The notes beneath the pieces are model-generated. The model saw only the letters and a program-made list of their open reading frames with translations, ran no database searches and was not told the DNA's origin. A stretch of 64,000 nt of DNA from a bacterium (GTDB lineage: Bacteria; UBA8248). The translations under genes and the position numbers were made by a program. Position 1 is the first letter of the stretch. Every line of letters begins with the position of its first letter. This document shows, piece by piece, positions 47,063-64,000 of the stretch. The stretch lies in assembly GCA_965204535.1 (NCBI GenBank), contig CBDBEV010000001.1, positions 2,880,001 to 2,944,000 of the forward strand. Reading direction: 5' to 3'.

Positions 47063-47467
47063 CTAAGCGCCCGGACTTATTGCGGCAATCGCTTTCTGCG
47101 TAAACTCCTTGATGTGGTCGTAGGCTCTCTCGGAAAGTTTGCACACCTCGGAGCCGTAGGTGGCGGGGCCGCGCACGTGTGTCGTTCTCAGGCTCTCGAA
47201 CACGGTCAGTTGGGTGAGGGCCCGCCTTGTCTCCTCGTCTATGTTGGCCTCCAGGAAATCATGGTCCCCGTGTTCAAAGAGATACCAGGTATGGGCAACG
47301 TCGTTGTTCTCGGGGATGACCCCTTTCGCGTGCAGGGCGGCATTCATCCAATTCGAGCAGATGTGCATGCGGCCCCACATCACCGCCTCGAAATCCTCCT
47401 CGGGGTCGAGTTTTTTCACCGATTGCGCAAACCGCTCAGCCTTGGCCATGTGTTCTTCGATTTTCAC
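47063..47467 (-). CDS. Hypothetical helical protein, paralog of 47490-47897
   Basis: GTG after GGAGA; HMAKAERF..KLDP..NAALHAKG..DVAHT..ESLRTTHVRG. Confidence 0.75.
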   Translation of the reverse strand: MKIEEHMAKAERFAQSVKKLDPEEDFEAVMWGRMHICSNWMNAALHAKGVIPENNDVAHTWYLFEHGDHDFLEANIDEETRRALTQLTVFESLRTTHVRGPATYGSEVCKLSERAYDHIKEFTQKAIAAISPGA

Positions 47468-47489
47468 GGCGCATCTCCAGAATTTCTGC

Positions 47490-47897
47490 TCATACCACTC
47501 TCCAGACCGCAGGCCGGGCCGCATCTCCGACTATCTCCAGAAAACCGGCTTTCGCCTCCTCCAGACTCTGAAGGCATTTGTCCATGATTGCCCGGGTAAT
47601 CGGCTCATTGTCCCGGCAATGCCCGGGGCGGAGCTGCTCAATGAATTTCAGGGGTTCCATCGCGGCCTGAAGCGCCGCGCCGGGCTGCCTGATGTATCCG
47701 TCCAGAGTGGGGCGGAAGGTGTGCGCGTGGTCCATCAACTGGTTTGTGATCCCCTCCGCGTGGAGAGCCGCGTTGAAATAGTGCGTGGCGGCGAGCATGC
47801 ACGTCTCGATGATCATTTCGGGGTCGTCGGCGGGATCCAGTTTTCGAAGGGAGGCTTCGATTCTTTGCGCCTTTGCGACGTGGTCACGCGGTTCCAT
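47490..47897 (-). CDS. Hypothetical helical protein, paralog of 47063-47467
   Basis: ATG after GGAGGAG; HVAKAQRI..KLDP..NAALHAEG..DHAHT..EQLRPGHCRD. Confidence 0.75.
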   Translation of the reverse strand: MEPRDHVAKAQRIEASLRKLDPADDPEMIIETCMLAATHYFNAALHAEGITNQLMDHAHTFRPTLDGYIRQPGAALQAAMEPLKFIEQLRPGHCRDNEPITRAIMDKCLQSLEEAKAGFLEIVGDAARPAVWRVV

Positions 47898-48227
47898 TAT
47901 TGATCTCCTCCGCTTTCCGGTGGGCATTGAAAACGAGGCCATCAATCCATGAATCAAAACCAGACGGGAAATTTTGACGTAAAGTGTCGCTTGGACGTGG
48001 GGCGTATGTCAACTATTCGAAATTCATCCCCTGAGCCACATTGAATTTGAAAACCGTGCCGGGAGATTCCATGAGAAAATTTCACGCTCGGCAAATGCGA
48101 CCACATCAATCGGGTTGAATGCCTCTGCAATTCTTTGCCGAGGCGTCTTCAGAACGTCTTGTTTGACTTCGCTTCCTATCAGACACCATATTAGGGACAC
48201 TTCGTGAAACGATAATCTCACATACGA

Positions 48228-50064: not shown

Positions 50065-50883
50065 CTATTTTTTCCCGGCGGCGGCCGCTCTGGGCGCGGC
50101 CAGCGCCAGGGCGGATGGCGCCCTGCGGAGGCTCAGCATGTAGACCGTCAGCGCTTCGAGATCCTCAGGCTTCAAATGGCCGTAGGCGGGCATGGCGGAG
50201 CCGGGCGAAACCTTCTGCGGGAACTTGAAATGTTCGATGTGCCACTTCGGGTCCTTCCGGCGCTCGCCCGCAAAGGTCAGGTCGGGCCCGACGACCCCGC
50301 CGGCGCCCCTGATCTTGTGGCAGGCGAGACAGCCGTTCATCAGATAAAGCAGTTTTCCCCTCTGGATGAGGGGGGCGTCTTTGAGAGCCCCCGCGTGGCA
50401 GGGGCCGCAACTCGCCTGAATGAACCCTCCCCGCAGCAGCGGCTCCTCCCAGAACGCGACTTCGCCGTGGGCGTCCTGGACGCTCGTCGCCCGGCCCTGG
50501 CCCTGGTGGCACACGGTGCAGCCGAACCGCTCGAAGGGATGCGGCGGGATGGTGGGGTGTCTGGCGAAAGGCTGCTCGGCATCCTTGAACGCCGGGTGCT
50601 CGACGCCGCGGTGGCACATGACGCACCTGTCCACGCGCTCGCCGCCGGCCACGATGATTTGCTCGAACTGGTCCCCGCTCGCCAGAGCGGCCTTGCGCTC
50701 CTCTTCGGTTCCGGCTCTTTCGACGAGCATTTCACGGAACGTCCGCTGGTAGCCCCGCCATTCGCGGTCGTAATCCTTCCAGACGGACAAGAGAAAAAAC
50801 AAGGCCGCGCAGACGCTCAGGGCGGCGAAGGCGACCACCCACCCGAACGGCACATGGGAATCGTTCTGATTTGAATTGGCCAT
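50065..50883 (-). CDS. Membrane-anchored tetraheme cytochrome c
   Basis: N-terminal TM; CVMCH, CTVCH, CGPCH, CLACH; C-terminal GPDL..PGSAMP. Confidence 0.9.
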   Translation of the reverse strand: MANSNQNDSHVPFGWVVAFAALSVCAALFFLLSVWKDYDREWRGYQRTFREMLVERAGTEEERKAALASGDQFEQIIVAGGERVDRCVMCHRGVEHPAFKDAEQPFARHPTIPPHPFERFGCTVCHQGQGRATSVQDAHGEVAFWEEPLLRGGFIQASCGPCHAGALKDAPLIQRGKLLYLMNGCLACHKIRGAGGVVGPDLTFAGERRKDPKWHIEHFKFPQKVSPGSAMPAYGHLKPEDLEALTVYMLSLRRAPSALALAAPRAAAAGKK

Positions 50884-50895
50884 ACGTTATCCGCC

Positions 50896-52392
50896 TCAGT
50901 GCAGGCCCGTCGCCTGCCACGGCCATATCCAGGCCCAGTTGGCGCCGCGGAAATAAAGCCCGATGAGCGTATAAATCAGGTAAGACGTCAGAAAATATGA
51001 ATACAGGGCCAACGCCCCCATCCGGCTCGACCCCGTGCGCCGCCAGATGTAGAGCGACCCGGCGGCGAAGAGGACGATCAGTATGGTCCCCGGATTCAGG
51101 AGGTCGACCCAGATCTGCGAGGCGCCCGGGACCAGTATCCGCACGGCGTAGTGCTCGTTCAGCCAGGTCAGGACGAGGACGACCGGGATGACCGCCGCGA
51201 CCGACCAGAGCGTGATCCGGCGGCCCTGGCCCGAGGTGAACCAGGTTCCCTGGCCCTCGGGGTTACGATCGATGTAGGGAATGCTCATGAGGCCGATAAT
51301 CGCGGCGGCGGGAACGATGACGCCTCCCGCCAGGGCGGAATAGCTCACGATTTCCTGGAGCCCGAGAAAATACCAGGGCGCCTTGGCCGGGTTGGGCGGA
51401 TGGTCCGGGTTGGCCAGCTCCTCCAGAGGCGCATCGAAGAAGTAGGCGACGGCGGAGAGGACGGCCACGACGCCCACGAAGACGACCAGCATCCGGAAGA
51501 CCGTATGCGGCCAGCTCATGACCTCTTCTTCGGGGGCCTGCGCCTCCACCATGGGCGTCTTGCCCTCGGCCAGCTCCACGAGCATGTACGTCTTGTGCGG
51601 CGAAAAAGCCGCCGCCTCGCCCCGGGCGGCCACAGAGGGCGGCGCGGGCGGCCGGGAGAGGCCCCCGTCCTTGCGTATCCGCCAGAAATGGACGCCCATG
51701 AGTATCATCATGATTCCCGGCAGGACGATGACGTGCATGACGTAGAACCGGATCAGCGCGTTCTGCCCCACCGTATCGCCTCCGAGCATCAGCGTGCGGA
51801 TGTGCTCTCCTACCAGCGGCGGGTAGCTGGCGATGCTCGACCCGACGGTGATGGCCCAATAGGCGAGTTGATCCCAGGGGAGGAGGTAGCCCGTGAAGCT
51901 CATCATCAGGGTCGCCCCCCAGAGGAGCACCCCGATGACCCAGTTGAACTCACGCGGCGCTTTGTAACTCGCCGTATAGAACACGCGGCACATGTGCAAA
52001 AAGACGACGGCGACCATCGCGTGCGCAGCCCAGCGGTGGAGGTTCCGCAGGACGACGCCGTAGGAGACGACGAATTGCAGGTCCTTCATGTCGCTGTAGG
52101 CGCGCTCGGTCGAGGGGACGTAGAAGAACATGAGCAAGGAGCCGGTGCCCAGAAGAATGATGAACAAGAACAGGGAGATGACCCCGAGTCCCCAGGTGTA
52201 GGTGGGTTTTAAGCTGTGAACGTGCGTTCGCGCGGGAAGGACGTGCAGGAAGAAATTCGAGAACATGACGGCCGCGCGATCCAGATCGTTGTCCGGATAG
52301 CCGCGGCGGAAGATCGAGCGGACGACGCGGTTGTCCCTAAGCCACGATACGGCTTTTCCGCGCCCTGATTTCTGCGGGGATTCGGTGACCAT
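50896..52392 (-). CDS. Cytochrome b of a Rieske/cyt b complex (b6 + subunit IV-like fusion with extra TMs)
   Basis: [27 protein letters not shown]-x14-H in helix D, PAKAPWYF (PEWY variant). Confidence 0.92.
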
Positions 52393-52401
52393 TGGGGCGG
52401 C

Positions 52402-52893
52402 TCAGATCTTGAAATGTTCGGAGGGGGCGACGACTTTGCGCGTATCGACCACGACGCGGCCATCCGGCGATTTCTTGACGAGGAAAAAGTCGAGCCCCCG
52501 GGGCGCAGGTCCCCCGAGCACCTGTCCCCGCCCGTCGAACGTGCTGCCGTGGCAGGGGCACCGGGCCCTCAATATATCGGGAGAGGCGCCGGGCGCGCCG
52601 ACGAAGGGGCTGATCACGCAACGGAGATGCGGACAGACGGCGGTGCAGGCCCGGAACCCGTCCTTCTCGCGAAACAGAACGATTTTCTTCTCTGCGAAAA
52701 ACGTGATGGACCCCACGGGGTACTTCTCCAGGGAGTCGAGCTTCAGAACCGACTCGCCCTCATAAACGACGTTGGGGAACAGGAAGCGGACGTTGGCGAG
52801 AACCGGACCCAGCAGGGAGATCAGGAAGGAAACCCAGCCGAGACCCAAAAGCATCCGTCGCCGGGGGGTCTGTTCATCCAGGCTCGCAGTCAT
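52402..52893 (-). CDS. Rieske iron-sulfur subunit of a bc-type complex
   Basis: RRRML twin-Arg plus TM; CPHLRC...CPCHGS; GPAPR. Confidence 0.92.
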   Translation of the reverse strand: MTASLDEQTPRRRMLLGLGWVSFLISLLGPVLANVRFLFPNVVYEGESVLKLDSLEKYPVGSITFFAEKKIVLFREKDGFRACTAVCPHLRCVISPFVGAPGASPDILRARCPCHGSTFDGRGQVLGGPAPRGLDFFLVKKSPDGRVVVDTRKVVAPSEHFKI

Positions 52894-52894
52894 G

Positions 52895-54940
52895 TCATCC
52901 AGTCTCCACCCACTCTTCCTGGAAAGAAAAATTCTCGATGGTGACGGCGCCCGTGGGACAGCGCTGGGCGCAGAGCGAACAACGGATGCACTTGTCCGGG
53001 TCCATGATCATCGCCGCGCCTCTCTCTCCTGCGCCCCCGGCGGACGTGCCAAAGCGGGCCTGGACCAGAGCCGCCAGGTCCTCTCCACCCTGAAGGGCTT
53101 CGAGGGGAACCATTCGAAGACAGCGTGAGGGGCAGACGTCCACGCAGCCGCCGCAGAGGATGCACCTGGCGCCGTCGAAGATCGGGTTAGCACTACAGCG
53201 CAGACACCGGAGCCCCTGTTCGACCGCCTCCCCGGGCGAATAACCAAGCTCCACCTCGGCGACGCCGATTCTGCGCTCGATGGGCAGCGCGTCGGGGTTT
53301 CGGCGAGACACTTTCTGGTAGCCGGGATTGACGATGGGAAGGGAAAACCCGTCTCCCGGCTCCTGGAGCAGCGCTTGTTGCAAGGGTTCGACAGAGGCCC
53401 ACTGAAGATGCGTCTGGACGCCTGCCTGACCGCCGGACAGATAGGTGTGAATGGAGCGGGCGGCGCGGTGGCCGTTTTCCACGCCCTCGATGAAGATACG
53501 GGGACCCATGGCGACGTCCCCGCCCGCGTACACGCCTGGAGCGGTCGTGGCCAGGGTTTCGGGATCAACGCGGATCGTCCCGCGCGGCGTCGTCTCGACG
53601 CCGTCCTCATCCTTGATCCAGGAGAGATCGGAGGCCTGGCCGACGGCGACGATCACCGAATCGCACGGAATCACGCGCCTGGTGTCCGGGTCGAATTCCG
53701 GGCTGAAGCGGCCCTCCTCGTCGAAGACGCGGGTGCACGTCTGGACTTCCAGCCCGACCACGCGGCCTTCTTTCTCCACGATGCGGACGGGCCCCACCCG
53801 GGGCTCGAGCTCGATCCCCTCATCGAGGGCTTCTTCGATCTCGAAATCCGCCGCCGGCATCTCGTCGCGCGATTCGAGGCAGATGACGTGGACGTTCCTC
53901 GCTCCCACGCGCATCGCCTCCCGGGCCACGTCCATCATCTCGCGCATGAGGACGGCGTCTTCCGTTTGATCGGCCGCGCCCGCGGGGGCATCCGCCCCGC
54001 CGGCGACCCGGGCGGCGACCCGGGCGGCGTCCATGGCCACGTTTCCCCCGCCGATCACGACGACGCGCTCGCCCAAATCGACGCGGAAGTTCAGATTCAC
54101 GTTCAGCAGAAACTCGACGGCCCGGAAAACGCCGTCCGCGTCCTGTCCTTCCATGGGGAGAGAGCGACTCACATGAGCGCCGATGGCGACGAACACCGCC
54201 TCGAAGCCTTCCTCGCGAAGGGAGGAGAGGTTGAAGTCCCGCCCGATGGCCTGGTTCAGCCGAAGCTCCACGCCCAGGCTGAGGATGGCCTGGATTTCGG
54301 CCTGAACGAGGTCGCGCGGGAGCCTGTATTCGGGAACCCCGAGCATCAGCATGCCGCCGGGAACGCCCTGTTTTTCGAAAACGCTCACGTCATAGCCGAG
54401 CAGGGCGAGATCGTGGGCGCAGGTCAGCCCCGCCACGCCCGATCCGACGACGGCCACCTTTTTTCCTGCCGTCTTTTCCTGTTCGGGCTTTCGGCGGGCC
54501 GCCTCCAGCACCGAAAAATCGTTGATGGTGCGCGTGGAGGGCTGAAAACGGAGGTCGCGCATACTCCTGAGGCTCCGGTGCGAGAAGGAGGATTCTCCCT
54601 TGCCGGACGACAAATCGGCCTCGACCCCGTAGCGTTCCGTCACGAATCGCTTGAGCGCCCGGATGGCCACCGGCGCATCGATGTTGCCGCGGCGGCACGC
54701 CGCTTCGCACGGCGCCGCGCAGACACGCCCGCAAACCGACGCGAAGGGGTTGGGCCCCCGGGCGATGATGTAGGCGCGCTCGAAGTCTTGCTCCGAGATG
54801 GCGGTCACGTAACCCCGCGCGTCCGTATGGACGGGACACGCGTCCTGGCAGCAAATCGTTTTCCGCCAGTGGTCGTGGCCGGGCAACTCGACCCGAAAGG
54901 AGCGCTCGGGAAGGGGAGCGTCCCGATTCCCTGAACCCAT
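52895..54940 (-). CDS. NAD(P)H/FAD-dependent Fe-S oxidoreductase (GltD/NfnB/DsrL-like) with C-terminal 2x[4Fe-4S] ferredoxin domain
   Basis: CQDACP, CGRVCAAPCEAAC, GSGVAG, GGGNVA, GGD; RCLRC, CILCGGCVDVCP, CIRCSLCAQRCP. Confidence 0.92.
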   Translation of the reverse strand: MGSGNRDAPLPERSFRVELPGHDHWRKTICCQDACPVHTDARGYVTAISEQDFERAYIIARGPNPFASVCGRVCAAPCEAACRRGNIDAPVAIRALKRFVTERYGVEADLSSGKGESSFSHRSLRSMRDLRFQPSTRTINDFSVLEAARRKPEQEKTAGKKVAVVGSGVAGLTCAHDLALLGYDVSVFEKQGVPGGMLMLGVPEYRLPRDLVQAEIQAILSLGVELRLNQAIGRDFNLSSLREEGFEAVFVAIGAHVSRSLPMEGQDADGVFRAVEFLLNVNLNFRVDLGERVVVIGGGNVAMDAARVAARVAGGADAPAGAADQTEDAVLMREMMDVAREAMRVGARNVHVICLESRDEMPAADFEIEEALDEGIELEPRVGPVRIVEKEGRVVGLEVQTCTRVFDEEGRFSPEFDPDTRRVIPCDSVIVAVGQASDLSWIKDEDGVETTPRGTIRVDPETLATTAPGVYAGGDVAMGPRIFIEGVENGHRAARSIHTYLSGGQAGVQTHLQWASVEPLQQALLQEPGDGFSLPIVNPGYQKVSRRNPDALPIERRIGVAEVELGYSPGEAVEQGLRCLRCSANPIFDGARCILCGGCVDVCPSRCLRMVPLEALQGGEDLAALVQARFGTSAGGAGERGAAMIMDPDKCIRCSLCAQRCPTGAVTIENFSFQEEWVETG

Positions 54941-54950
54941 GCCCGCGATC

Positions 54951-55337
54951 CTATTTCGCCAGGGAGCGCATGAACGCGACCAGGTTCTGGAGGTCCGCGT
55001 CCGAAAGAACCCCGCCCCAGGGGGGCATCAACGGCGATTTCCCGACCGCGACGCCGCCAAGCTTGGTGATCTTGGCGATATATTCGTCCGATATGGTCTT
55101 CATGTATTTGGCGTCGGTGTGATTCCTCGGCTTCGGGTTGAGCGCCTTGGCCGCGGGGCCGTCGCCCTTGCCCGATGCGCCGTGGCAGGAGGCGCAAAGC
55201 TGCTGGTATTTGACGTTGCCGGCCGCAACGTCGCCTTTCTGCTGAGCGGCCCCGTCATCCGAAGACCAGAAAAAGAGCGCAACTGCAAGCGCCAGGCCGG
55301 CGCAGATGAGAAACCTTCTCGATCGAGACATTCGCAT
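54951..55337 (-). CDS. Periplasmic monoheme class I cytochrome c
   Basis: Signal peptide, CASCH, GDGP..PRN, distal Met in PLMPPW. Confidence 0.9.
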   Translation of the reverse strand: MRMSRSRRFLICAGLALAVALFFWSSDDGAAQQKGDVAAGNVKYQQLCASCHGASGKGDGPAAKALNPKPRNHTDAKYMKTISDEYIAKITKLGGVAVGKSPLMPPWGGVLSDADLQNLVAFMRSLAK

Positions 55338-55384
55338 TCAACCTCCCTCGCGGTTTTACGGGCTTGTGTAAACCTCCATCTCCA

Positions 55385-58051
55385 TCAAAGCGTCCGGGGG
55401 ACAAAGCTTAAGCTCGTCAGCGAATGCTTGTGCGGAGATTCTCCTATCTTCTTCAACTTCCCCTTGCCCAGCTTGTAGCGGTAGCGGTTGGTCAGGGGGT
55501 CCGGCACCCGGTGGACCACCGAATTGGCCGGGTTCTCGGGAAAGCCGAAATAGGCGAAGGTGACGCCCTCGCGAACCGCGTCCGTGACCATGGCCACCGC
55601 GGTGAAGCTCCCCTTGCTCTTCTTGATATTCCCGGCCTTCATGAGCTCGGTGAACGTCTGCTCCTTGCCGTCGACGCCGATGTATCCGCCCGTCTGCACG
55701 AGGAGGTCGTCGTTCTCGATGGCCACGAGGTCTCCTGATTCGATGCCCCGGGCGCCGGCGTCTTTGGGGTGAATTTCCAGGAACTGCTGCGGCCAGCGCT
55801 GCATGATGTAGGGCCGCCGCTTGTCGTCGTAGCCGGATTGCCAGAGCTCGTTGATCCGCCCGTTCGTCACCCACAGTTCGTCCCCCTGCGGGGTGACCCG
55901 GTCGTAGAAGTCCTTGAAATCCTCCCAGTAGCTTTTCAGCAAGACCGCCTTGCCGCTCTGGGTCCCGAAGGAGGTGAGCCACTTCCGGTGCATGGTGGGC
56001 CCCTCGGGGGTTCCGAGTTCCAGGGTCTCGTCGTGGAGGCGCTTCGTCCCGACGAGTTCGCCCTTGACCATGCGGATGGGGGTTTGGATGCCGTCGGTCC
56101 CGTATTCGCGGAGCAATTCGTGGCCCCGTTTCCCCTCGCGCTTGGCCTTCACCACGAGCGGGTGGTAATTGAGCACCCCCTTGCGTCCGAAGCGGGCCGC
56201 TTCCTCGAAGATCTGGTTGCTGTCCTTCCAGTCGAAGCCCTTGAAGCCCATCTTCCTCGCGAAGGCCGCGATGATCCACCAGTCGGGCCGGGCCTCACCG
56301 GGGGGGTCGGCGAACTTGCTGTAGAGCCTGAGGCGGCGCTCGCCGTTGCACCGGGTGAAGTCCTCCTCGCCCCAGGTGGCGGCCGGGAGCACCAGGTCCG
56401 CATACTCGGTTCCGATCGGGGAAACGGGATAGATGTCCTGGTGGGCGACGACCATGCCGCCGGAATCCACTCGCTGCTTGAGCGCGTCCACCGCCGTATC
56501 GACGTCGAAGCTCTCGATCTGGTGCGGGTTGCGGCGCGTCAACCGCTGGAAGACGTCCATCAACTCCTGAGACGCCGCCATGGCCTGGCACCAGGTGGTT
56601 CCGATGACCCATGCGAAGCGCACGTGGCCGTCCACGACCCAGCGGTCGAGGTCGATCTCCTTCTTGCGGCGCCCCGGCGCCTTCTCCGGCGACAGGCTCC
56701 TCGGATAACCGGCCCCTCCCATCCAGCCCCGCTGGTGTCCACCGCCGCGGGAGATCACCCGGCCCGGCCGCGACCCGGCGCCGCAGACCAGCCCCAGCGC
56801 CGCAAAGGAAGCCGTGTTCCCGAAACTGTTGCACCAGTAATTGCCCTTCTCGAGCATGAACGAGGTCTTCTTGCGGGTTCCGTCGGGCTTGGGCTTGGCG
56901 AGGATTTCAGCCGTCTGGCGTATGGACGCCGCGGACACGCCCGTTATCTTCTCGGCGCGCTCCAGTTCGGCGTAGGGATAGCTCATGATCCACTTCTTGT
57001 AGCCCTCGAAGTCCGTCCCGTACTTGCCCCAGGTCGTGACCCACTGCCAGGGCGTGTTGCGGGTGCCGCGCCCCATGCCGGAGCCGATCTCCCACTTGTT
57101 CGAGATTTTTCGCGCGATCCACTCCTTGTCCTCCCAGCCGTTCTCGAGGATCAGGCGGATGATGGCCAGGTGGAGCACCGTGTCCGTCCCCGGAATGACG
57201 GGGAGAAAGAGACCGCCGCGCTTCTCGCCGTAGGCCACGCCCGAAGTCTTGCGCGGCATGGCGAAGACGAGTTTCTTGCTCGGCGTTTTCCCGCCCATGA
57301 TCCACGAGGTGAACAGCACCGACTTGGTCTCCCAGGGGTCGACGCCCGAGAAGAAGATGACCTCGGCCTCTCCCCAGTCGTCATAGGAGGCGCTGAAGGG
57401 GTTGATGCCGGAAAAATCGATCCCGGGCGTGTCCTTGCCGGGGCCCGGCTTGTCATGCGGGGCGTAGGCCGGCGTTCCGATGGCGCGGAAAGCGAGCTTG
57501 GAGATGGCGTAGGTGTTCTCGAAATACTGGTAGGAATACGTCTTCATCGCCCAGGCGTGCTCGCCGAACTTGTCCAGGACGTGCTTCGAGATTCCCGCCA
57601 TGACGCCCACCGCCGTATCCCACGAGACCTCCTGCAAGGTACCGCGGACCCGCATCATCGGCTGGCGCAGGCGGTCCTGCGAGGGTTCGTTGGGGTTGTA
57701 GAGCTTCTTGGCCAGGACGCCGCCCCGGATGGAGTGGTTCCCCCCGACGTTCACGACATTCGCATCCTTGTCCGGCATGACGACGACGTGGTGGGGACTG
57801 CCGTCCACCATGATGATGTTGTGCATGTTCGGGCTGACCCAGCCGCCGCTCATGATGGCGGTGGGGAAATCCACGCGCAGGGCGTTCTGGCTCGCCTTGG
57901 GTCCGCCCTCGCGACCGATCGGCCAGCGGTAGACCTTGTACCCGCAGCCCACGATGCAGTAGTCGCACGCCGTGGTGAACACCTCCGCGTTCGGCGGGGG
58001 GAGGGGGACACTGTCTTCCGCAAGATAGTAGTTCGTCACCTTTCCTGCCAT
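55385..58051 (-). CDS. idrA: DMSO-reductase-family molybdoenzyme of the AioA/IdrA clade; iodate reductase catalytic subunit-like
   Basis: TACDYCIVGCGY ([3Fe-4S] CX2CX3C) plus HSIRG, APHDKP, EKGNYW, RGGGHQRG, NGERRLRLY, NGRINE.WQS; no signal peptide; adjacent Rieske and two CCP genes. Confidence 0.8.
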   Translation of the reverse strand: MAGKVTNYYLAEDSVPLPPPNAEVFTTACDYCIVGCGYKVYRWPIGREGGPKASQNALRVDFPTAIMSGGWVSPNMHNIIMVDGSPHHVVVMPDKDANVVNVGGNHSIRGGVLAKKLYNPNEPSQDRLRQPMMRVRGTLQEVSWDTAVGVMAGISKHVLDKFGEHAWAMKTYSYQYFENTYAISKLAFRAIGTPAYAPHDKPGPGKDTPGIDFSGINPFSASYDDWGEAEVIFFSGVDPWETKSVLFTSWIMGGKTPSKKLVFAMPRKTSGVAYGEKRGGLFLPVIPGTDTVLHLAIIRLILENGWEDKEWIARKISNKWEIGSGMGRGTRNTPWQWVTTWGKYGTDFEGYKKWIMSYPYAELERAEKITGVSAASIRQTAEILAKPKPDGTRKKTSFMLEKGNYWCNSFGNTASFAALGLVCGAGSRPGRVISRGGGHQRGWMGGAGYPRSLSPEKAPGRRKKEIDLDRWVVDGHVRFAWVIGTTWCQAMAASQELMDVFQRLTRRNPHQIESFDVDTAVDALKQRVDSGGMVVAHQDIYPVSPIGTEYADLVLPAATWGEEDFTRCNGERRLRLYSKFADPPGEARPDWWIIAAFARKMGFKGFDWKDSNQIFEEAARFGRKGVLNYHPLVVKAKREGKRGHELLREYGTDGIQTPIRMVKGELVGTKRLHDETLELGTPEGPTMHRKWLTSFGTQSGKAVLLKSYWEDFKDFYDRVTPQGDELWVTNGRINELWQSGYDDKRRPYIMQRWPQQFLEIHPKDAGARGIESGDLVAIENDDLLVQTGGYIGVDGKEQTFTELMKAGNIKKSKGSFTAVAMVTDAVREGVTFAYFGFPENPANSVVHRVPDPLTNRYRYKLGKGKLKKIGESPHKHSLTSLSFVPRTL

Positions 58052-58063
58052 GATGCGTCCTCC

Positions 58064-58606
58064 TCAGCGCTGTACCGGCGCCAGATTCGAGTGATAACCA
58101 TACAGCAGTCCCATCATCCCGATCGCGTAGATGTCGTCTCCTCGGGTTTCCAGAACCACCTGGGGGAGGCTTTCGGTGGCCTGCCCCGCCCCGACCATGC
58201 CGTGCTTCATCAGATCGAAGGTCGTCAGATGGAACGGGCACGGGCCGATGGCCTTGTGCTGCGCGTTATAAGTCCCCTGCAGGGGGCCGCCCATGTGGGT
58301 GCAGAGGGTGCTGAACGCCACCACGTCCCGCTTGGGGCCGACGCCGCCGCCGGCTTGAACGCCCAGTTTGACCAGCATGCACCCCGAGAAGACGTCCTTC
58401 CACGGGTACTGGAAGAATTGCGGCGCATCGACCTTGAGGGCGCTGAGCGTCCCGATTTTCTGGCGGGGATACTCCGCCCTTTGCAGGGCCGCTCCGGCCA
58501 GGCCGGGGATGCCCTGGACCAGCACGATGCTCACGGCGGTTCCGCCGGCCAGGAGAAAGGCGCGCCGCGAGACGCAAGGCCGGGTTTCCTTGGCTTCCTG
58601 AGTCAT
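58064..58606 (-). CDS. idrB: TAT-exported Rieske small subunit (AioB/IdrB)
   Basis: SRRAFL twin-Arg signal, GGVGP..DVVAFS, CTHMG, CPFH, GQATESLPQ, GLLYG. Confidence 0.82.
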   Translation of the reverse strand: MTQEAKETRPCVSRRAFLLAGGTAVSIVLVQGIPGLAGAALQRAEYPRQKIGTLSALKVDAPQFFQYPWKDVFSGCMLVKLGVQAGGGVGPKRDVVAFSTLCTHMGGPLQGTYNAQHKAIGPCPFHLTTFDLMKHGMVGAGQATESLPQVVLETRGDDIYAIGMMGLLYGYHSNLAPVQR

Positions 58607-58616
58607 GGATTCCTCC

Positions 58617-59756
58617 TTACGGCATGGCCGCATACGGCGGCAGTTCGGGGGGCCGGACGAGCAGGGGCTTATCGCTCGAGAGCGATTCCAGAAACGCCAG
58701 CAGGTCTTCTTTCTCCTCGTCCGAAAGTCCCAGTTTCTTGATGAGGGGACTCTTGTTCGCATCCTCGCCGCCCCCTTCGTCATAAAAATCGATGACCTCA
58801 TCCAGTTCGAAAAATGCGCCGTTGTGCATATAGGGCGCAGTGTATTTGAGCTCCCTCAGGCTCGGGGTGCGGAACCTCCCCTTATCGGCCTCGCGCTTGG
58901 TGGTGTAGAAGAGCCCCAGGTCCCGGTCCGCCTTGCGGTAGACGGATTCGGGGACGCCGCGGATCACGTGCTGGTAGCGAAGCGTTATCTGCCTTAAAGG
59001 ATCTTCCTCGAACGCGGGGCTCTTGGGAACGCCGACGTTGTGGTAGTCCTCATCCGAGAGGAGTGCGCCGTTGTGGCACTGGACGCACCCGGCCTTTCCC
59101 TGGAAGAGAGCCAGCCCGCGCTTCGCGCTGTCCGAGAGCGCCTTCTCCTCCCCTTTCATGAAGCGGTCGAAGGGCACGTCCTTCGCGTTGGAAACCACCG
59201 TGCGCTCGAAGGCCGAGATGGCCCGCCAGGCGTCGTCGATGGTCGGCCAGGGGGATCCGAACACCGCCCGGAAGCGCCTGACGTATTCGGGGACCTGGCG
59301 CAGGCGCTCCTCCATCATCATGGTGTCGCCGTTGCCGGCCACGTTGCCCGTGGCGGCGCTCTTCGCCTGCGCTTCGAGGCTCGTAGACTCGCCCGCCCAG
59401 AAGAGTTTTGCGTAGTAGGCGGAATTGAGGATCGTCTGGGAATTGCGCCAGTGCTGCGTGCCCGGATAGCCCCGGCTCAGATCGCCCCCGTCCCCCCAGC
59501 CGCTCTCGGGGCTGTGGCAGGAGGCGCACGACGTGCTGGCGTCGCCCGAGAGGCGGGCGTCGAAAAACAGCAGCTTGCCGAGCTCCACCTTGGCGGCGGA
59601 CATGGGGTTGTCCGCGGGCACCGGGACAGGCGGCAAGGGTCCCAGCGGAGGGAATTTCCCCTCCTGGGCCGCGCTTGCTCCTCCCACCAGAAGTGCGGCG
59701 ATGAAGCATACGGCCATCGTGGAACCCAGGAAGCAGTTTTTGATTCGCGCGTTCAT
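58617..59756 (-). CDS. Diheme cytochrome c peroxidase/MauG-family protein (IdrP-like)
   Basis: DNP..KVELGKLLFFDARLS, CASCH, CVQCH, FRTPSLR..TAPYMHNG; ATG after GAGGAG. Confidence 0.9.
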   Translation of the reverse strand: MNARIKNCFLGSTMAVCFIAALLVGGASAAQEGKFPPLGPLPPVPVPADNPMSAAKVELGKLLFFDARLSGDASTSCASCHSPESGWGDGGDLSRGYPGTQHWRNSQTILNSAYYAKLFWAGESTSLEAQAKSAATGNVAGNGDTMMMEERLRQVPEYVRRFRAVFGSPWPTIDDAWRAISAFERTVVSNAKDVPFDRFMKGEEKALSDSAKRGLALFQGKAGCVQCHNGALLSDEDYHNVGVPKSPAFEEDPLRQITLRYQHVIRGVPESVYRKADRDLGLFYTTKREADKGRFRTPSLRELKYTAPYMHNGAFFELDEVIDFYDEGGGEDANKSPLIKKLGLSDEEKEDLLAFLESLSSDKPLLVRPPELPPYAAMP

Positions 59757-59766
59757 GGCCGTCTCC

Positions 59767-60882
59767 TCAATTATCGCCGAGTTTGCGAAGTTCATAATCG
59801 GGAATTTTCGGCGCCGCAGCAAAAACCGTCTCGCCCGAGAGGCTCTTAAGGAACGCCACCAGGGCCTTCTTCTCATCCGCAGTCAGCCCCAGCGGCTTCA
59901 AGCGCGAGCTCTTGTTGGGGCCGCTCCCGCCGCCCCTGTCGTAGAAGGCGACGACGTCTTCAAGCGCGGCGAGTGCGCCGTTGTGCATGTAGGGCGCCGT
60001 CCGGGCGACTTCGCGCAGGGTCGGCGTGCGGAACTTGCCCCGGTCGCTCTCCTCTTTGGTCACGACGTAGAGGCCGGGGTCGGCCCTCAGGTTCATGAAG
60101 TTCGGGACGCCGATGACCTTGTTGAAGCGCCGGAAGGTGATGTGGCGCAGCGGGTCCTTGAATATCTGCTCGTTCTCGGGAACGCCGAGCGCGTGGAATC
60201 CGCCGTCGCTCAATAGCGCGCCGTTATGGCACTGAACGCAACCGGCCTTTCCGCTGAACAGGGCGAGGCCTTTTTGCGCCTCGGCGGAAAGGGCCTTTTT
60301 ATCGCCCTTCAGGTAGTTGTCGAAAGGCGCGTTCTCCGAAGCGATGGTGTGCAGGAACGCCGCGATGGCCTTGAGCGCGCCGCCGAAGGAGGGCTCCCCG
60401 CCGTAGACCTCCTTGAATTTCTTCACGTAAAGCGGCACCTGCTTGAGCCGCTCGGGGAACAGCCGCCCGTCGACCAGCATGAAGTGGGCTTCGGTCAGGT
60501 GGTCCCGCACGAGCGTGGGCAGGTCGGCCCCGCTCAGGCGCCCGTCCCAGAAGACGCGCTTGTTGTAGGCGGCGTTTAAGAGCGTCTGGGCGTTCCGGAA
60601 ATACTTGCTTCCCGGATAACCCGCCGAGAGCGCCTGCCCGTCGCCCCATCCCTTCGCGGGCTGGTGGCAGGCGGCGCAGCTGATCCCTCCGTCCCCCGAC
60701 ATCCGGGGGTCGAAGAACAGGTACCGGCCCAGTTCGGCCTGCGCGGGCTTCTGGGCCTTGGGCGCCGGCAGGGGCGCGAGAGAAGCCCCCAGGCCCGCGG
60801 CGGGGAGCAGAACCCAGGCGCTCAGCAGGACTCCGCAGAGTATCCGGCGCCGGACAACGCGAACTGATTTCATTCTTCGCAC
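59767..60882 (-). CDS. Second diheme cytochrome c peroxidase/MauG-family protein (IdrP-like); start 60882 or 60873
   Basis: ELGRYLFFDPRMS, CAACH, CVQCH, FRTPTLR..TAPYMHNG. Confidence 0.9.
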   Translation of the reverse strand: MRRMKSVRVVRRRILCGVLLSAWVLLPAAGLGASLAPLPAPKAQKPAQAELGRYLFFDPRMSGDGGISCAACHQPAKGWGDGQALSAGYPGSKYFRNAQTLLNAAYNKRVFWDGRLSGADLPTLVRDHLTEAHFMLVDGRLFPERLKQVPLYVKKFKEVYGGEPSFGGALKAIAAFLHTIASENAPFDNYLKGDKKALSAEAQKGLALFSGKAGCVQCHNGALLSDGGFHALGVPENEQIFKDPLRHITFRRFNKVIGVPNFMNLRADPGLYVVTKEESDRGKFRTPTLREVARTAPYMHNGALAALEDVVAFYDRGGGSGPNKSSRLKPLGLTADEKKALVAFLKSLSGETVFAAAPKIPDYELRKLGDN

Positions 60883-60972
60883 CTCCCTGGCTGGCTGTTC
60901 TGTCTTCTGACGCTATCCCCTATCGGACATCCGGCCCGACCGCGCCGGATGAGAATATCGACCCCGGACTTC

Positions 60973-61484
60973 GGGGTTGTTGAAAGAGCCGTGTGGCTCG
61001 GGCATCTCCTCATCGGTCGGGTTACAAATCAACTCCCCTCCTTAAACAGGGGACAAAGGCAACCCCCCCTACCCCCCCTTGTCAGGGGGGTATAAAAAAG
61101 CACCCCCCGCAAAAAAGGATCAACTCTCCCCTTGAGGGGGTCGGGCTTTCCCCTCGGGAAGACCGACGAAGAGCTAAGGGCGAAGCCCGCAAGCGATTCG
61201 GTGGGGGGACATGCCACGGATAAAAACTCCCCCCACCACATCGGCCTTCGCACAAACCGCTCGGCCTCTGTCGGGCTTCCCGAGGGGAAAGCCCGACCCC
61301 CTCAAGGGGGGAGTTGATTGTTGAGCGCTCTACAAGGGGGGTTGCTCTTTCTTGCCCCCCTGACAAGGGGGGGTAGGGGGGGTTGTCCCTTCCGGTGAAA
61401 TTCGATTGATCTGTAGGGGTCGCATATATGCGACCCTGCCTTTTTTCGCCGCCGCTCATGGGCCGCATGTATGCGGCCCCTACA
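60973..61484. repeat. Nested palindromic repeat cluster
   Basis: GGGGTTGTTGAAA end at 60973; outer element 61059-61385 enclosing hairpin ~61120-61318; REP doublet 61412-61484. Confidence 0.8.
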
Positions 61485-61694
61485 AAACCATCGCCTTTGG
61501 AAACCATGGGCCTTTTCAGGGAAGCTTTTCGGGCGGCCCCCATCAGGCCGTATTCGACGTGTTCTCCGGTGAGGCGCCGGGACAGGACGGGCGAACCCGC
61601 GGATGCGAATCGAACGGTTCGCTTCTCGAGTGTTTTCACTGCATGCGGGTCGGTTCTCATTTTCCCGGGTCTTCCTCGTGTTGAAAATCCGGTC

Positions 61695-62438
61695 TTATTT
61701 CGCAGAAAACGTGAAGTCGGCCGTCTTCTTTCCTCCGGTGGAAATTTTGATCCTTTTCTTCTTGACCCCCAGGGCCGGGTGCCACGCCCGCAGCGCGTAT
61801 TTCCCCGGCGGGACGTCTGCGATCTCGAAGCGCCCGTCCGCGCCCACGAGCGCGTAGTAGGGGTTCCGGGCCACGAAGAGGAATCCCTTCATCCAGTTGT
61901 GCACGTCGCACTCGACCCGGACGATGGGGCTGCGCCGCACCTTCGCCCGGCGGACGACCTTCTTCCGCTGTTTGGGCTGGGAGATGTTCCACATGGAGCG
62001 CTTCGCCCGGCCGATGATCTCGTAGGTGTGGATGTTGTGGTGGGCGGCGTCGCTGTTCAGGATGGTGACCTTGCCCCCCTCGGCGACGACCTGGAGGTAG
62101 GGCACGTAGGCGCACTTCTTCTGGTCCACCACGGCGCTCTTGATTTTCCCGGGATACGCCTTGCCCTTTTTGACCTTGTCGAGATAGACGACCACGCCCC
62201 TCAAGGCGCCGTCTTTCGCGTCCACCTCCTGGCGGGTGACCTGGCCCTTGCCGCAGGCGTGCTGGTCCTTGGTGATGATGTATTTGACGGGGGCGGGAGG
62301 CTTTCCCTCGAAGCTCACCTTGCCGGTGATGGTTCCGCCGTCTTTGACGGATGCGGCCTTGTACTTCGCCAGGGAAGCGTTCGGGGCAAGGAGGAAAGGC
62401 AGGGACAAAACGAATGGCAGGATGAATGTACGAATCAT
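61695..62438 (-). CDS. Secreted protein with carboxypeptidase-regulatory-like beta domains and a cupredoxin-like motif
   Basis: Signal peptide, GGTITGKV, DQKKCAYVP, HHNIH, CDVHNWM, VPPGKY..WHP. Confidence 0.8.
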   Translation of the reverse strand: MIRTFILPFVLSLPFLLAPNASLAKYKAASVKDGGTITGKVSFEGKPPAPVKYIITKDQHACGKGQVTRQEVDAKDGALRGVVVYLDKVKKGKAYPGKIKSAVVDQKKCAYVPYLQVVAEGGKVTILNSDAAHHNIHTYEIIGRAKRSMWNISQPKQRKKVVRRAKVRRSPIVRVECDVHNWMKGFLFVARNPYYALVGADGRFEIADVPPGKYALRAWHPALGVKKKRIKISTGGKKTADFTFSAK

Positions 62439-62596
62439 TGCGAGAATTCCCCCACGAAATCTTGCATCGGATCACGGCAACCCTGTCGTCAACTGTTCCG
62501 GGTCGTTTTCATCCTCCTCATCGGCGGCGCGCCGGCGCGGAAAGGGAGCGTCCTTTCCGCCTCGGGCGTGCTTTTTATGAACGTATTCCTGCTTTT

Positions 62597-62625
62597 AATA
62601 TAAGGACTGCGGCTGAATGTTGCAA
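62597..62625 (-). promoter_or_regulatory. Candidate sigma70 promoter at the head of the redox cluster
   Basis: Minus strand TTGCAA-17 nt-TATATT, about 160 nt upstream of the 62438 start. Confidence 0.55.
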
Positions 62626-62725
62626 CAGGATGGAAATGCGGTTTTCCCCCGGTGAGCGGGCCGTTGGGAAAGCCCTGTATGCGTCCCCCGGAAACCGCCG
62701 ACGCCTCTTTCCTAACCCTGAAAAC

Positions 62726-63088
62726 CAACCCCCCCTACCCCCCCTTGACAGGGGGGTATGAAAAGGCGACGCCCCGCCGCCGAGATGAACGCAAATCAAC
62801 TCCCCCCTTGAGGGCCTGTTGAAAAACCCCTCGTCGAGCGGAATTGATTGCCGGAATGACAATCAAAAGCACATTCACCCGTAGGGGCGGCCCCCTGTGG
62901 CCGCCCTGCCCCGTGGCTACGCTTCGCACGGACAGGCACGGGGGCCTGTCCCTACGGTGAACAATTCGATGATCGGGATTCCTTCTCCACCGGAGGGTTT
63001 TTCAACAGACCCCCAAGCGGGGAGTTGATCTTTTTTTTGCGGGGGTTGCTCTTTTTACCCCCCTGACAAGAGGGGGCAGGGGGGGTTG
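62726..63088. repeat. Multi-level nested repeat (outer CCCCTACCCC element, TGTTGAAAAA-ended MITE 62812-63012, REP doublet 62880-62956)
   Basis: GGGCCTGTTGAAAAACCC ... GGGTTTTTCAACAGACCC (17/18 inverted match) inside the paired outer ends. Confidence 0.8.
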
Positions 63089-63239
63089 CATTCCAGCCGG
63101 GGGAAGGGCGGCCACGGTCGAACTCCCCTCTTCGGGAAGTTCGACACCCCTACGGGTTCGTTACGTTACGATCGGTTTTCGTAGGGACAGGCCCCCGTGC
63201 CTGTCCGTGGCCCCCGTGCCTGTCCGGGGCCGGGCGTCC

Positions 63240-64000
63240 TCACGGCCCGTAGCGCAGCCGCGCCGTCGCGCCCTGTTTCGCGAGCTGGCCCTGCGCGTAG
63301 CGCCCCGGCATGGCGGGCGAGCGCCAGCGGCCGGCGATTTGCATCTCGACCAGCGACGCGCCCGCCGTGACGAGGCTCTGCGCGCTGCCCACCCTGAGGC
63401 TGTGCCCGCTGATGCGCCCCTCCAGGCCCGCCTCCCGGGCGCGGCGGACGATGATGCGCCGGATGCCCCTCTCCGAGAGGCGCCCCGCCTGCACCCGGCC
63501 CGACCTGTGGACGGCCCGGAAGAGCGCTCCTTCTCCGAGACCCGACCCCTCGAGCCAGGCCCCGACGCGCGCCAGGGTCGGGTCGCCCATAAACTGCAGG
63601 ACGCCCGCGCCCTCCTGGTCCGTCTTCGAGCGCCGGACCAGCACCGTCTTCTCGCCCAAGTCCATGTCGGCGACGTCGAGCGCCGCGACCTCCGACACCC
63701 GGAGCAGGGCGTCGCTCGCCACCGCGATGATCGCCGCGTCGCGCAGCCCGCCCAGGGTCCCCGAGCGCTCGGCCAGCGCCGCCGCGCGGTCCGCCTGCTC
63801 CCAGCGAACGCCCGCCACCTTGCCGCTCCCGCGCTCTGCGGCCAGGCGCCGGAAGCCGGCCAGCACCCGCTCGGCGGCCGCCCCCACCGGGGAGGGCCAC
63901 CCGCCCAGCTTCGCCCGGAAGCGCAGCGCCGCGACCGCCATGGAGGCTGCGGCCGCGGACAGCCCCCCCTCGTAGAGGTCCCCCAGGTACGCCGCCACCC
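63240..64000 (-). CDS. Tyrosine recombinase, Cre-like; 5' truncated by window edge
   Basis: RDAA..LLRVSE (R), RRSKTDQ (K), GHSLRVG (HxxR), GRW (W), M..RY (Y). Confidence 0.92.
   Translation of the reverse strand, partial: VAAYLGDLYEGGLSAAAASMAVAALRFRAKLGGWPSPVGAAAERVLAGFRRLAAERGSGKVAGVRWEQADRAAALAERSGTLGGLRDAAIIAVASDALLRVSEVAALDVADMDLGEKTVLVRRSKTDQEGAGVLQFMGDPTLARVGAWLEGSGLGEGALFRAVHRSGRVQAGRLSERGIRRIIVRRAREAGLEGRISGHSLRVGSAQSLVTAGASLVEMQIAGRWRSPAMPGRYAQGQLAKQGATARLRYGP

What the first reader, a model, noticed from the sequence alone, without database searches (positions are those of the whole stretch)
50065..62438. Iodate-reductase-like module joined to its own flavoprotein-containing Rieske/cytochrome b complex
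Seen: ten co-directional minus-strand genes in the order cupredoxin-like, CCP, CCP, TAT-Rieske, molybdoenzyme, cyt c, NAD(P)H Fe-S flavoprotein, Rieske, cyt b, tetraheme cyt c. The last nine are separated by only 1-47 nt. Established: idrABP1P2 (AioA-related Mo enzyme, Rieske, two CCP-like proteins) is the dissimilatory iodate reductase of Pseudomonas sp. SCT and Denitromonas sp. IR-12. Inference: this operon encodes the whole electron path, NAD(P)H/quinol -> Rieske/cyt b -> tetraheme c -> cyt c -> IdrB/IdrA and IdrP. I do not recall this combination being described, and the host appears to lie outside the Proteobacteria in which Idr was characterised.
Basis: partly seen in the sequence, partly recalled or inferred. 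Interest (0 to 1): 0.9.

Follow-up and report, generated by a model that had tools for sequence, protein, structure and literature searches.

The report
Iodate reductase with anammox-type quinol complex
A bacterium whose closest named relatives come from sponges keeps likely iodate-reductase genes in one gene block with an unusual membrane complex of a kind first seen in anammox bacteria, which is predicted to split the two electrons of quinol between iodate and NAD+; related complexes sit beside other terminal reductase genes, so this untested idea can now be tried outside anammox.

Summary
Confirmed: ten minus-strand genes, the last nine 1-47 nt apart. The molybdoenzyme falls in the IdrA clade (58% identical to a proven iodate reducer, about 30% to AioA) and has the defining idrP1P2BA order; activity is untested in this branch. 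The second half is an anammox-type Rieske/cytochrome b complex with a cytoplasmic Fe-S flavoprotein predicted to use NAD(H); the genome also has a separate ordinary complex. The link is no accident: all 14 genus genomes with idrA carry the module, and the pairing recurs, from separate branches of both proteins, in 4 of 6 idrA-bearing genomes of the Calditrichota sample. RNA-library contigs cover the block and bridge idrA to the flavoprotein gene. Related modules sit beside N2O reductase and Nap-like or cbb3-like genes. Likeliest mechanism (0.42): menaquinol is split, one electron going to iodate and one to NAD+. A published 'arsenite oxidase' call in a sponge Nitrospinota genome is this cluster. 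Both halves are known; I found no paper on the pairing. The scan noted it before in other genomes; one note's 'confined to one lineage' is contradicted here.

The parts
61695..62438 (-). Secreted protein with a cupredoxin domain and a predicted type-1 copper site (H134, C177, H180, M183); candidate periplasmic electron carrier
   Evidence: Four residues invariant in 27 of 27 aligned homologs; model pLDDT 90.7 matches plastocyanin, amicyanin and pseudoazurin; reading them as copper ligands is recalled knowledge; signal peptide judged by eye
60883..61694 (.). 812-nt spacer filled with genome-wide short inverted repeats; absent in several relatives
   Evidence: an RNA-library contig from a relative joins P1 to the cupredoxin gene without 784 nt of it (X3 record 23)
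59767..60882 (-). IdrP1-type di-heme protein (first peroxidase-like gene), with Tyr at the distal ligand position (MbnH/MauG-like)
   Evidence: PF03150; 52% to the first peroxidase gene of Azonexus NCP973; motifs shared with it. The P1/P2 labels follow gene order here
58617..59756 (-). IdrP2-type di-heme protein (second peroxidase-like gene), with Tyr at the distal ligand position
   Evidence: PF03150; 61% to NCP973; Tyr aligns with the Tyr of 6e1c and the Met of 4aal
58064..58606 (-). IdrB, Rieske subunit with a twin-arginine motif (SRRAFLL)
   Evidence: TIGR02694 above cut-off; 58% to NCP973, 41-42% to AioB
55385..58051 (-). IdrA, 888-aa molybdo-bis-PGD enzyme with a [3Fe-4S] motif; likely iodate reductase
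   Evidence: TIGR02693 score 455.5 over cut-off 359; IdrA clade 100/100; 58% to NCP973; 75% to OGK84091.1
54951..55337 (-). Monoheme cytochrome c; predicted shuttle from the membrane complex to Idr
   Evidence: 1 CxxCH, PF13442; NCP973 also has a c-type cytochrome gene right after idrA; it precedes the module in G035 and G025
52895..54940 (-). Cytoplasmic NfnA/GltD/DsrL-like Fe-S flavoprotein with a C-terminal ferredoxin domain; predicted NAD(H)-specific
   Evidence: Domains; best PDB match by sequence and fold is the NfnABC of 9bov/9bp5; CLE replaces YRR; no signal peptide by eye
52402..52893 (-). Rieske protein of the membrane complex, with a Ser/Phe second sphere like Kuenenia Kustd1480
   Evidence: PDB hits ranked 1 and 3 are the Kuenenia proteins 9rk4 and 9rk3; motifs
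50896..52392 (-). Fused cytochrome b6 + subunit IV; heme ligands H119, H133, H220, H235; extra H50; no heme ci Cys
50065..50883 (-). Membrane-anchored tetraheme cytochrome c
   Evidence: 4 CxxCH; homologs follow cyt b in the related modules, with 4-8 hemes; membrane anchor judged by eye

Best explanation
The block encodes a likely periplasmic iodate reductase (IdrABP1P2) together with its own anammox-type Rieske/cytochrome b complex, which is predicted to oxidise menaquinol and send one electron through Rieske, tetraheme c and cytochrome c to iodate and the other across the membrane to a cytoplasmic flavoprotein that would reduce NAD+. The NADH would be re-oxidised by complex I, so more charge is moved per iodate than in an ordinary Q-cycle. 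Shown: the genes, their order, the clade of IdrA, repeated linkage, a second ordinary complex, presence in RNA libraries. Inferred: substrate (about 0.85), electron supply by this complex (about 0.85), direction of the flavoprotein branch (about 0.55 given the first two).
For: Idr identity: tree, gene order as in Azonexus NCP973, shared motifs. Functional link: all 14 of 23 genus genomes with idrA have the fused cyt b, and 8 genomes lack both; linked with another gene order in G028; linked in 4 of 6 idrA genomes among 121 Calditrichota-phylum genomes, where the 70%-or-closer ortholog of that flavoprotein occurs only in 5 idrA genomes. The linked IdrAs and the linked flavoproteins are each rejected as one clade (p-AU 7e-82; 9e-59). 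Outward flow to reductases: of 16 further module loci, 7 lie beside clade II nosZ, 2 beside a Nap-like enzyme, 1 beside a type II Mo enzyme and 1 beside cbb3-like genes. Altered cytoplasmic side: 0 of 14 flavoprotein-linked cyt b rows have the heme ci Cys, which the host's ordinary copy keeps, while the Qo-loop motif KAPWYF is the same in both. Menaquinone pathway and complex I NuoF present. Precedent and potentials: PMC12954380.
Against: No experiment on this branch of IdrA: it lies outside the branches with tested enzymes, the base of the clade is unresolved, and the stretch after the conserved His differs from NCP973 (HDKPGPGKD against HDKCSATND). NAD(P)H formation by such complexes has not been measured even in anammox. 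The host shows no RuBisCO, no clear ATP-citrate lyase and no CO dehydrogenase above cut-off (genome 95.7% complete), so it has no obvious autotrophic need for reverse electron flow. Aerobic idr carriers are proposed to use iodate as a sink for surplus reducing power (PMC11445184), which fits the opposite direction. Most idr clusters lack the module: 1 of 47 distant loci with 3 kb or more downstream, 0 of 12 such places in the Methylomirabilota sample. H50 is also in the ordinary cyt b, and the Lys near the FAD-proximal cluster is also in NfnA/StnC, so neither is diagnostic. The seven nosZ-linked modules form one clade and count as one event.
Confidence: 0.42

Rival explanations
1. One reading: the flavoprotein oxidises NADH and feeds electrons into cytochrome b and quinone, so the block is a self-contained NADH-to-iodate chain that dumps surplus reducing power when oxygen runs short.
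For: The host looks heterotrophic (relatives listed as 'lithoheterotrophs'). Iodate as an electron sink is proposed for aerobic idr carriers. An NAD(H)-type pocket fits. All linkage and RNA evidence fits equally well.
Against: It would bypass the proton pumping of complex I, whose NuoF is present; PMC12954380 rejects this direction for anammox on that ground. The heme ci Cys, on the side where quinone would be reduced, is missing.
Confidence: 0.28
2. The molybdoenzyme acts on another oxyanion (arsenite or antimonite oxidation, bromate or chlorate reduction), and the complex serves that reaction, perhaps in reverse.
For: It passes the AioA HMM cut-off and has been published as arsenite oxidase in sponge Nitrospinota MAGs. 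Its branch is untested and its active-site loop differs from NCP973. A position as sister to AioA was only weakly rejected (p-AU 0.039).
Against: About 30% identity to AioA against 58% to a proven IdrA. It lacks the GG insert and the GHQE motif of the four AioA rows. Peroxidase-like genes, absent from aio clusters, lie upstream in 53 of 53 distant loci with enough DNA. idr clusters from two uncultured lineages reduced iodate in E. coli. The published 'unknown clade' was not in my tree.
Confidence: 0.13
3. The complex is simply a second, co-regulated quinol:cytochrome c oxidoreductase for Idr that runs an ordinary Q-cycle; the flavoprotein is an accessory with little flux.
For: The four canonical heme His and the Qo-loop motif are intact. 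Many bc complexes work without heme ci (recalled).
Against: The flavoprotein gene stays directly before the Rieske gene in the modules examined across several phyla, with its Cys sets and nucleotide motifs conserved.
Confidence: 0.12
4. Two unrelated units sit side by side by hitch-hiking on a mobile island.
For: An integrase gene lies 0.8 kb upstream, and the flanks differ among relatives. The module occurs without idrA found in G025 and away from it in G035.
Against: Gaps of 47 and 10 nt; linkage kept after rearrangement (G028) and repeated in another phylum from different branches; G+C matches the window; the integrase is beside the block in only 2 of the 14 close loci.
Confidence: 0.05

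Closest known systems
IdrABP1P2 iodate reductase (Pseudomonas sp. SCT, Denitromonas IR-12, Azonexus hydrophilus NCP973)
   Same: Order peroxidase-peroxidase-B-A followed by a cytochrome c gene; 52-61% identity of all four proteins to NCP973; twin-arginine motif on B; no chlorite dismutase in the host (its only family member is HemQ-type).
   Different: Deep branch next to Rokubacteria/NC10 enzymes with no tested member. It carries its own quinol-oxidising complex and a cupredoxin, whereas the IR-12 cluster 'lacked a quinone oxidoreductase'.
Kuenenia stuttgartiensis Rieske/cyt b complexes Kuste4569-4574 and Kustd1480-1485
   Same: b6-like cyt b, multiheme c instead of cyt c1/f, NfnA-like Fe-S flavoprotein; Rieske most like 9rk4 and 9rk3; a His before helix A and Arg after helix D where the paper models an extra heme.
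   Different: b6 and subunit IV are fused; 4 hemes instead of 6-8; no heme ci Cys; the partner is IdrA rather than an HAO-like protein; the host is not an anammox organism. The Kuenenia flavoprotein and cyt b sequences were not in hand.
Arsenite oxidase AioAB (NT-26, Thermus, Burkholderia, Acidiphilium)
   Same: Same enzyme family, [3Fe-4S] motif and Rieske small subunit; passes TIGR02693 and TIGR02694.
   Different: 28-31% identity, separate clade at 100/100, different active-site motifs, no peroxidase genes.
MbnH / MauG di-heme enzymes and bacterial cytochrome c peroxidases
   Same: Family PF03150, two CxxCH motifs, inter-heme Trp.
   Different: P1 and P2 have Tyr at the distal position like 6e1c, not Met, and lack the Glu found in the peroxidase 4aal at the aligned site (the roles of these residues are recalled). 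NCP973 shares both traits, so this is a feature of the Idr family.

Membership tests
IdrABP1P2 iodate reductase | Catalytic subunit in the IdrA clade, apart from AioA | tested here: met
   100/100 with NCP973 IdrA and with OGK84091.1 and OGH62377.1, both in the published idr figure. The published 'unknown clade' (Halobiforma, Dehalococcoidia) was not included.
IdrABP1P2 iodate reductase | Two di-heme peroxidase-like genes and a Rieske gene directly before idrA | tested here: met
   criterion from PMC8692401
IdrABP1P2 iodate reductase | Tat signal on B, Sec signals on P1 and P2, none on A | tested here: met
   Read by eye from the sequences; no signal-peptide predictor was run
IdrABP1P2 iodate reductase | Reduces iodate to iodide; induced by iodate | not testable with these tools
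   Needs expression and assay
Arsenite oxidase AioAB | Membership of the AioA clade with AioA active-site motifs and no peroxidase genes | tested here: not met
   the HMM cut-off alone is met but is also met by Idr-type proteins
Anammox-type Rieske/cyt b complex with NAD(P) oxidoreductase | Genes for flavoprotein, Rieske, b6-like cyt b with subunit IV and multiheme c in one unit | tested here: met
Anammox-type Rieske/cyt b complex with NAD(P) oxidoreductase | Flavoprotein of NfnA-like fold with four Fe-S clusters, the FAD-proximal one short of a Cys and with a nearby Lys | tested here: inconclusive
   Fold and Cys sets fit; K97 is invariant in 91 rows but also present in NfnA/StnC; no Kuenenia sequence to align
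Anammox-type Rieske/cyt b complex with NAD(P) oxidoreductase | N-terminal His for a modelled extra heme b at the dimer interface | tested here: inconclusive
   H50 invariant in 18 of 18 rows, but one of those rows is the host's ordinary cyt b6
Anammox-type Rieske/cyt b complex with NAD(P) oxidoreductase | Heme cN (ci) on the cytoplasmic side | tested here: not met
   WGLGV in place of YCLGG; hence a variant of the anammox type
Anammox-type Rieske/cyt b complex with NAD(P) oxidoreductase | Flavoprotein physically bound to cyt b; quinol-driven NAD(P)+ reduction | not tested
Canonical bacterial cytochrome c peroxidase | Met distal ligand on the high-potential heme and catalytic Glu/Gln | tested here: not met
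   Tyr in 157 of 174 P1/P2-type sequences, His in 4, motif not found in 13; alignments

The most novel reading that the evidence does not exclude
The flavoprotein-bearing Rieske/cyt b complex is not an anammox oddity but a widespread plug-in. Menaquinone-using bacteria attach it to strong terminal oxidants (iodate, N2O, nitrate, O2) to bifurcate quinol electrons onto NAD+ and run them through complex I again, raising the energy yield per scarce acceptor. Sponge symbionts use it in situ to respire seawater iodate, with hypoiodous acid as a reactive by-product inside the sponge.
Probability: 0.33. Interest if true: 0.87.

Novelty: new variant of a known kind. Interest (0 to 1): 0.68.

Why it matters
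(1) Whether Rieske/cyt b complexes can make NAD(P)H by quinol bifurcation is an open proposal, so far tied to anammox bacteria. Here the complex has a named, assayable acceptor enzyme, and relatives sit beside nosZ, which widens the choice of test systems. (2) The donor to Idr is unknown in the model strains; two lineages recruited the same kind of complex. (3) The 'arsenite oxidation' potential reported for at least one sponge Nitrospinota MAG rests on this cluster, so HMM-based aoxAB calls in sponge microbiomes need rechecking, and iodine rather than arsenic cycling may be at stake. Both halves are known separately, so this is a new combination and not a new kind of enzyme.

Tried and rejected
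H50 and K97 as markers of the anammox type: dropped as non-diagnostic. Promoter and terminator scan: 1 promoter-like site against 1.8 expected; uninformative. Chlorite dismutase partner: the only family member is HemQ-type and lies elsewhere. Mobile island: G+C is level and the integrase is one of about a dozen copies. Metagenome scan with the flavoprotein gave only 3 loci. Contig depth was not used to rank genes. The first flavoprotein tree had long-branch outgroups and was redone without them. SCT, IR-12 and Kuenenia flavoprotein or cyt b sequences could not be obtained. Six large ORFs elsewhere in the window gave nothing tied to the block.
Full report
OBSERVATION. The ten ORFs are present on the minus strand in the stated order. 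With starts set by ribosome-binding sites, the gaps from P1 to the tetraheme gene are 10, 10, 12, 47, 10, 1, 9 and 12 nt; the first gene is 812 nt away. That spacer holds repeats common in this genome and is about 85 nt in five relatives. G+C is level with the rest of the window.

HOST. The nearest named relatives (IdrA 93-97% identical) are MAGs deposited as Nitrospinota (L009, L011, L012). The MAG behind L011 is listed from the sponge Ircinia ramosa in the supplement of PMC8941161. A lineage such as UBA8248 is probable but was not tested for this genome. The genome (95.7% complete) has a complex I NuoF above cut-off, a heme-copper oxidase and two futalosine-pathway menaquinone genes. It has no RuBisCO, only two weak ATP-citrate-lyase-domain hits, no CO dehydrogenase above cut-off and no true chlorite dismutase. 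A second, split b6/subunit IV Rieske complex lies on the other contig, so the complex in the block is an extra one.

THE IDR HALF. The 888-aa protein is 58% identical to IdrA of Azonexus hydrophilus NCP973 and 28-31% to AioA. NCP973 is one of five isolated iodate respirers (PMC13455634) and has the same order, followed by a cytochrome c gene. In a 30-row tree with four AioA as outgroup, the window protein is in the Idr-like clade (100/100) and is sister to Rokubacteria/Methylomirabilota proteins including OGK84091.1 (a 46-row quick tree agrees). That accession is in the published idr neighbourhood figure, whose text counts Rokubacteria and NC10 among predicted iodate reducers. Motifs are Idr-type. 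Against: no enzyme of this branch has been tested, the base of the clade is unresolved, a position as sister to AioA was rejected only at p-AU 0.039, and the published 'unknown clade' was not sampled. P1 and P2 carry Tyr where peroxidases have Met, like the di-heme enzyme 6e1c; Tyr was found in 157 of 174 P1/P2-type sequences, His in 4, no motif in 13. NCP973 shares this, so Idr 'peroxidases' look MbnH/MauG-like as a family (ligand roles recalled). A search for IdrP1, MauG, iodate and di-heme listed no paper holding the word MauG.

THE MEMBRANE HALF. The Rieske protein's PDB hits ranked 1 and 3 are the Kuenenia proteins 9rk4 and 9rk3; it has the Ser/Phe pair of Kustd1480, measured at +335 mV. 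The flavoprotein matches the NfnABC of entries 9bov/9bp5 best by sequence and fold; 9bp5 is one of the two structural homologs named for the Kuenenia flavoproteins. It has CLE where NADP-binding relatives have YRR; in DsrL, loss of YRR goes with NAD(H) use (PMC7596348). All 29 module flavoproteins in my tree have xLE. The cyt b is a b6-subunit IV fusion with four heme His and the same KAPWYF loop as the ordinary copy, but none of the 14 flavoprotein-linked rows has the heme ci Cys that the ordinary copy keeps. It is therefore a variant of the anammox type, whose models include that heme. The first gene is a cupredoxin with an invariant His/Cys/His/Met set; homologs occur in 10 of 44 distant idr loci with enough upstream DNA.

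LINKAGE. Among 61 genomes searched, 14 of 23 in the genus have idrA and all 14 have the fused cyt b; one more (350 contigs) has the module at a contig end without idrA found; 8 lack both, one of them 79% complete. G041 (same class) has the whole block; G028 has the module upstream of the idr genes; G035 has both on different contigs; G025 has the module with no idrA found. Most idr clusters lack it: 1 of 47 distant loci with 3 kb or more downstream, and 0 of 12 such places from the 17 of 251 genomes with idrA in the phylum sample around a Methylomirabilota record. In 121 genomes of the phylum around a Calditrichaceae record, 6 have idrA; 4 have flavoprotein and Rieske genes just downstream (cyt b seen in 3; the fourth contig ends), 1 has a broken contig with the ortholog on another, and 1 has none. 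Orthologs at 70% or more to that flavoprotein occur only in those 5 genomes, although 20 of 121 have some module flavoprotein (that tally includes one unpublished genome, G406, on which nothing else rests). The linked IdrAs are not one clade (p-AU 7e-82), nor are the linked flavoproteins (9e-59). The pairing thus arose at least twice, or both halves were replaced separately; kin are not independent within each group.

OTHER PARTNERS. I fetched 16 of the 30 matches, chosen by rank and omitting those already seen, partial or unpublished. Seven lie beside clade II nosZ (above cut-off), two beside a Tat Nap-like Mo enzyme (one scanned, below cut-off; one cut by the contig end), one beside a type II Mo enzyme and one beside cbb3-like genes (both below cut-off), one is the idr-genome ortholog, two have unassigned neighbours and two end at contig edges. 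Flavoprotein clades follow the partner; the nosZ set is one clade. The partners that could be named firmly are terminal reductases for strong oxidants.

RNA. Eight RNA runs hold part of the block; four, from two studies, were laid. In X2, contigs about 95% identical cover 50089-60348 almost without a break, and one spans 53701-56537 across flavoprotein, cytochrome c and idrA; an X1 contig bridges the same junction. On a 20-kb control stretch X2 had depth in 15 of 30 bins, against 28 of 30, in short pieces; X1 and X3 had 25 and 29 bins but left a 3.4-kb gene almost bare. This argues against even DNA carry-over. The runs were picked for holding the block, come from relatives, and contigs show neither strand nor a single transcript.

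MECHANISM. With the values in PMC12954380 (menaquinone -70 mV, NAD -320 mV, Rieske +303 to +335 mV), the uphill step costs 250 mV and the downhill step gives about 370-405 mV. The surplus of 120-155 mV is about what moving one electron against the membrane potential costs (typical size recalled). The reaction would therefore run only with a strong sink that keeps the Rieske oxidised. Iodate respiration is placed between oxygen and nitrate in energy yield, which fits, as do the other partners. For a heterotroph the gain would be a second pass through complex I per scarce iodate. All of this is inference. The NADH-fed direction fits the same genes and the electron-sink proposal for aerobic idr carriers, but wastes complex I's pumping.

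A PUBLISHED CALL TO REVISE. PMC8941161 reports aoxAB in sponge Nitrospinota MAGs, using TIGR02693 at threshold 357, and marks it present in SB0662_bin51. That genome has one TIGR02693 match at E 1e-20 or better, the gene in L011, which is 95% identical to the window's IdrA and preceded by P1, P2 and B.

LITERATURE SEEN. PMC8692401: parts 2-3 of 8, a supplement search and supplementary file 2. PMC12954380: part 1 of 7, first part of the Discussion, passages. PMC13455634: parts 1-2 of 5 and a term search (no hit for Rieske, cytochrome, quinol, Calditrich, Nitrospin). PMC10989891: part 1 of 3 and passages. PMC11445184, PMC10839748, PMC7596348: passages. PMC8941161: passages and supplement rows (two of its three files were cut when stored). 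Yamazaki 2020, Kartal 2013 and de Almeida 2016 were not read and are cited through these papers. Searches listed no paper whose title or abstract start, or whose text where read, describes idr joined to such a complex. The library lacks most subscription journals, and older reviews of Rieske/cyt b diversity (recalled) may mention flavoprotein-bearing operons.

VERDICT. A real, conserved, independently repeated pairing of two known systems: a new variant of a known kind, interest 0.68. The scan recorded the same pairing in other genomes; those notes are not counted as support.

Noticed in passing
L157, L161, L163-L166, L168: The same kind of flavoprotein-Rieske-cyt b-pentaheme module lies just upstream of clade II nosZ in seven loci from six genomes of the phylum sample around a Calditrichaceae record; one paper search listed nothing on it.
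   Followed up: partly
L121, L122, L029 (genome G062); L157, L167, L168 (genome G363): Single genomes carry three or four different module flavoproteins with different neighbours, as Kuenenia carries several Rieske/cyt b complexes.
   Followed up: partly
window 58617-60882 and idr loci generally: IdrP1/P2-type proteins, including those of a proven iodate reducer, have a Tyr distal ligand position and lack the peroxidase Glu; their textbook role as H2O2 reductases may need rethinking.
   Followed up: partly
window 63240-63998: Tyrosine recombinase gene cut by the window edge, with about a dozen paralogs in the genome, seven of them 75-82% identical over the full length.
   Followed up: partly
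window 60883-61694 and 62440-63200: Families of short G/C-run inverted repeats; one 54-nt unit has 204 matches in the genome.
   Followed up: partly
G000:C1:459442-462081: The host has a Tat-exported molybdoenzyme followed by napG/napH-looking genes; not scanned against families.
   Followed up: no
L076:13330-16284: 984-aa octaheme cytochrome c near the ordinary Rieske/cyt b genes, 35% identical in part to the tetraheme protein.
   Followed up: no
L077 (G000:C2:384313-386615): A third di-heme peroxidase-like gene, also with Tyr at the distal position, followed by di- and monoheme cytochrome c genes.
   Followed up: no
L078 (G000:C2:728394-730390): A paralog of the cupredoxin gene (37%) lies divergent from the HemQ-type gene.
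   Followed up: partly
L082, L084, L154-L156: An Rrf2-looking regulator gene precedes several modules (confirmed by family scan for L082 only); the window's block has no adjacent regulator, whereas NCP973 and the Calditrichaceae idr cluster have a sensor/regulator pair upstream.
   Followed up: partly
window 47063-47957: Two tandem related-looking ORFs of about 155 aa with no Pfam match.
   Followed up: no
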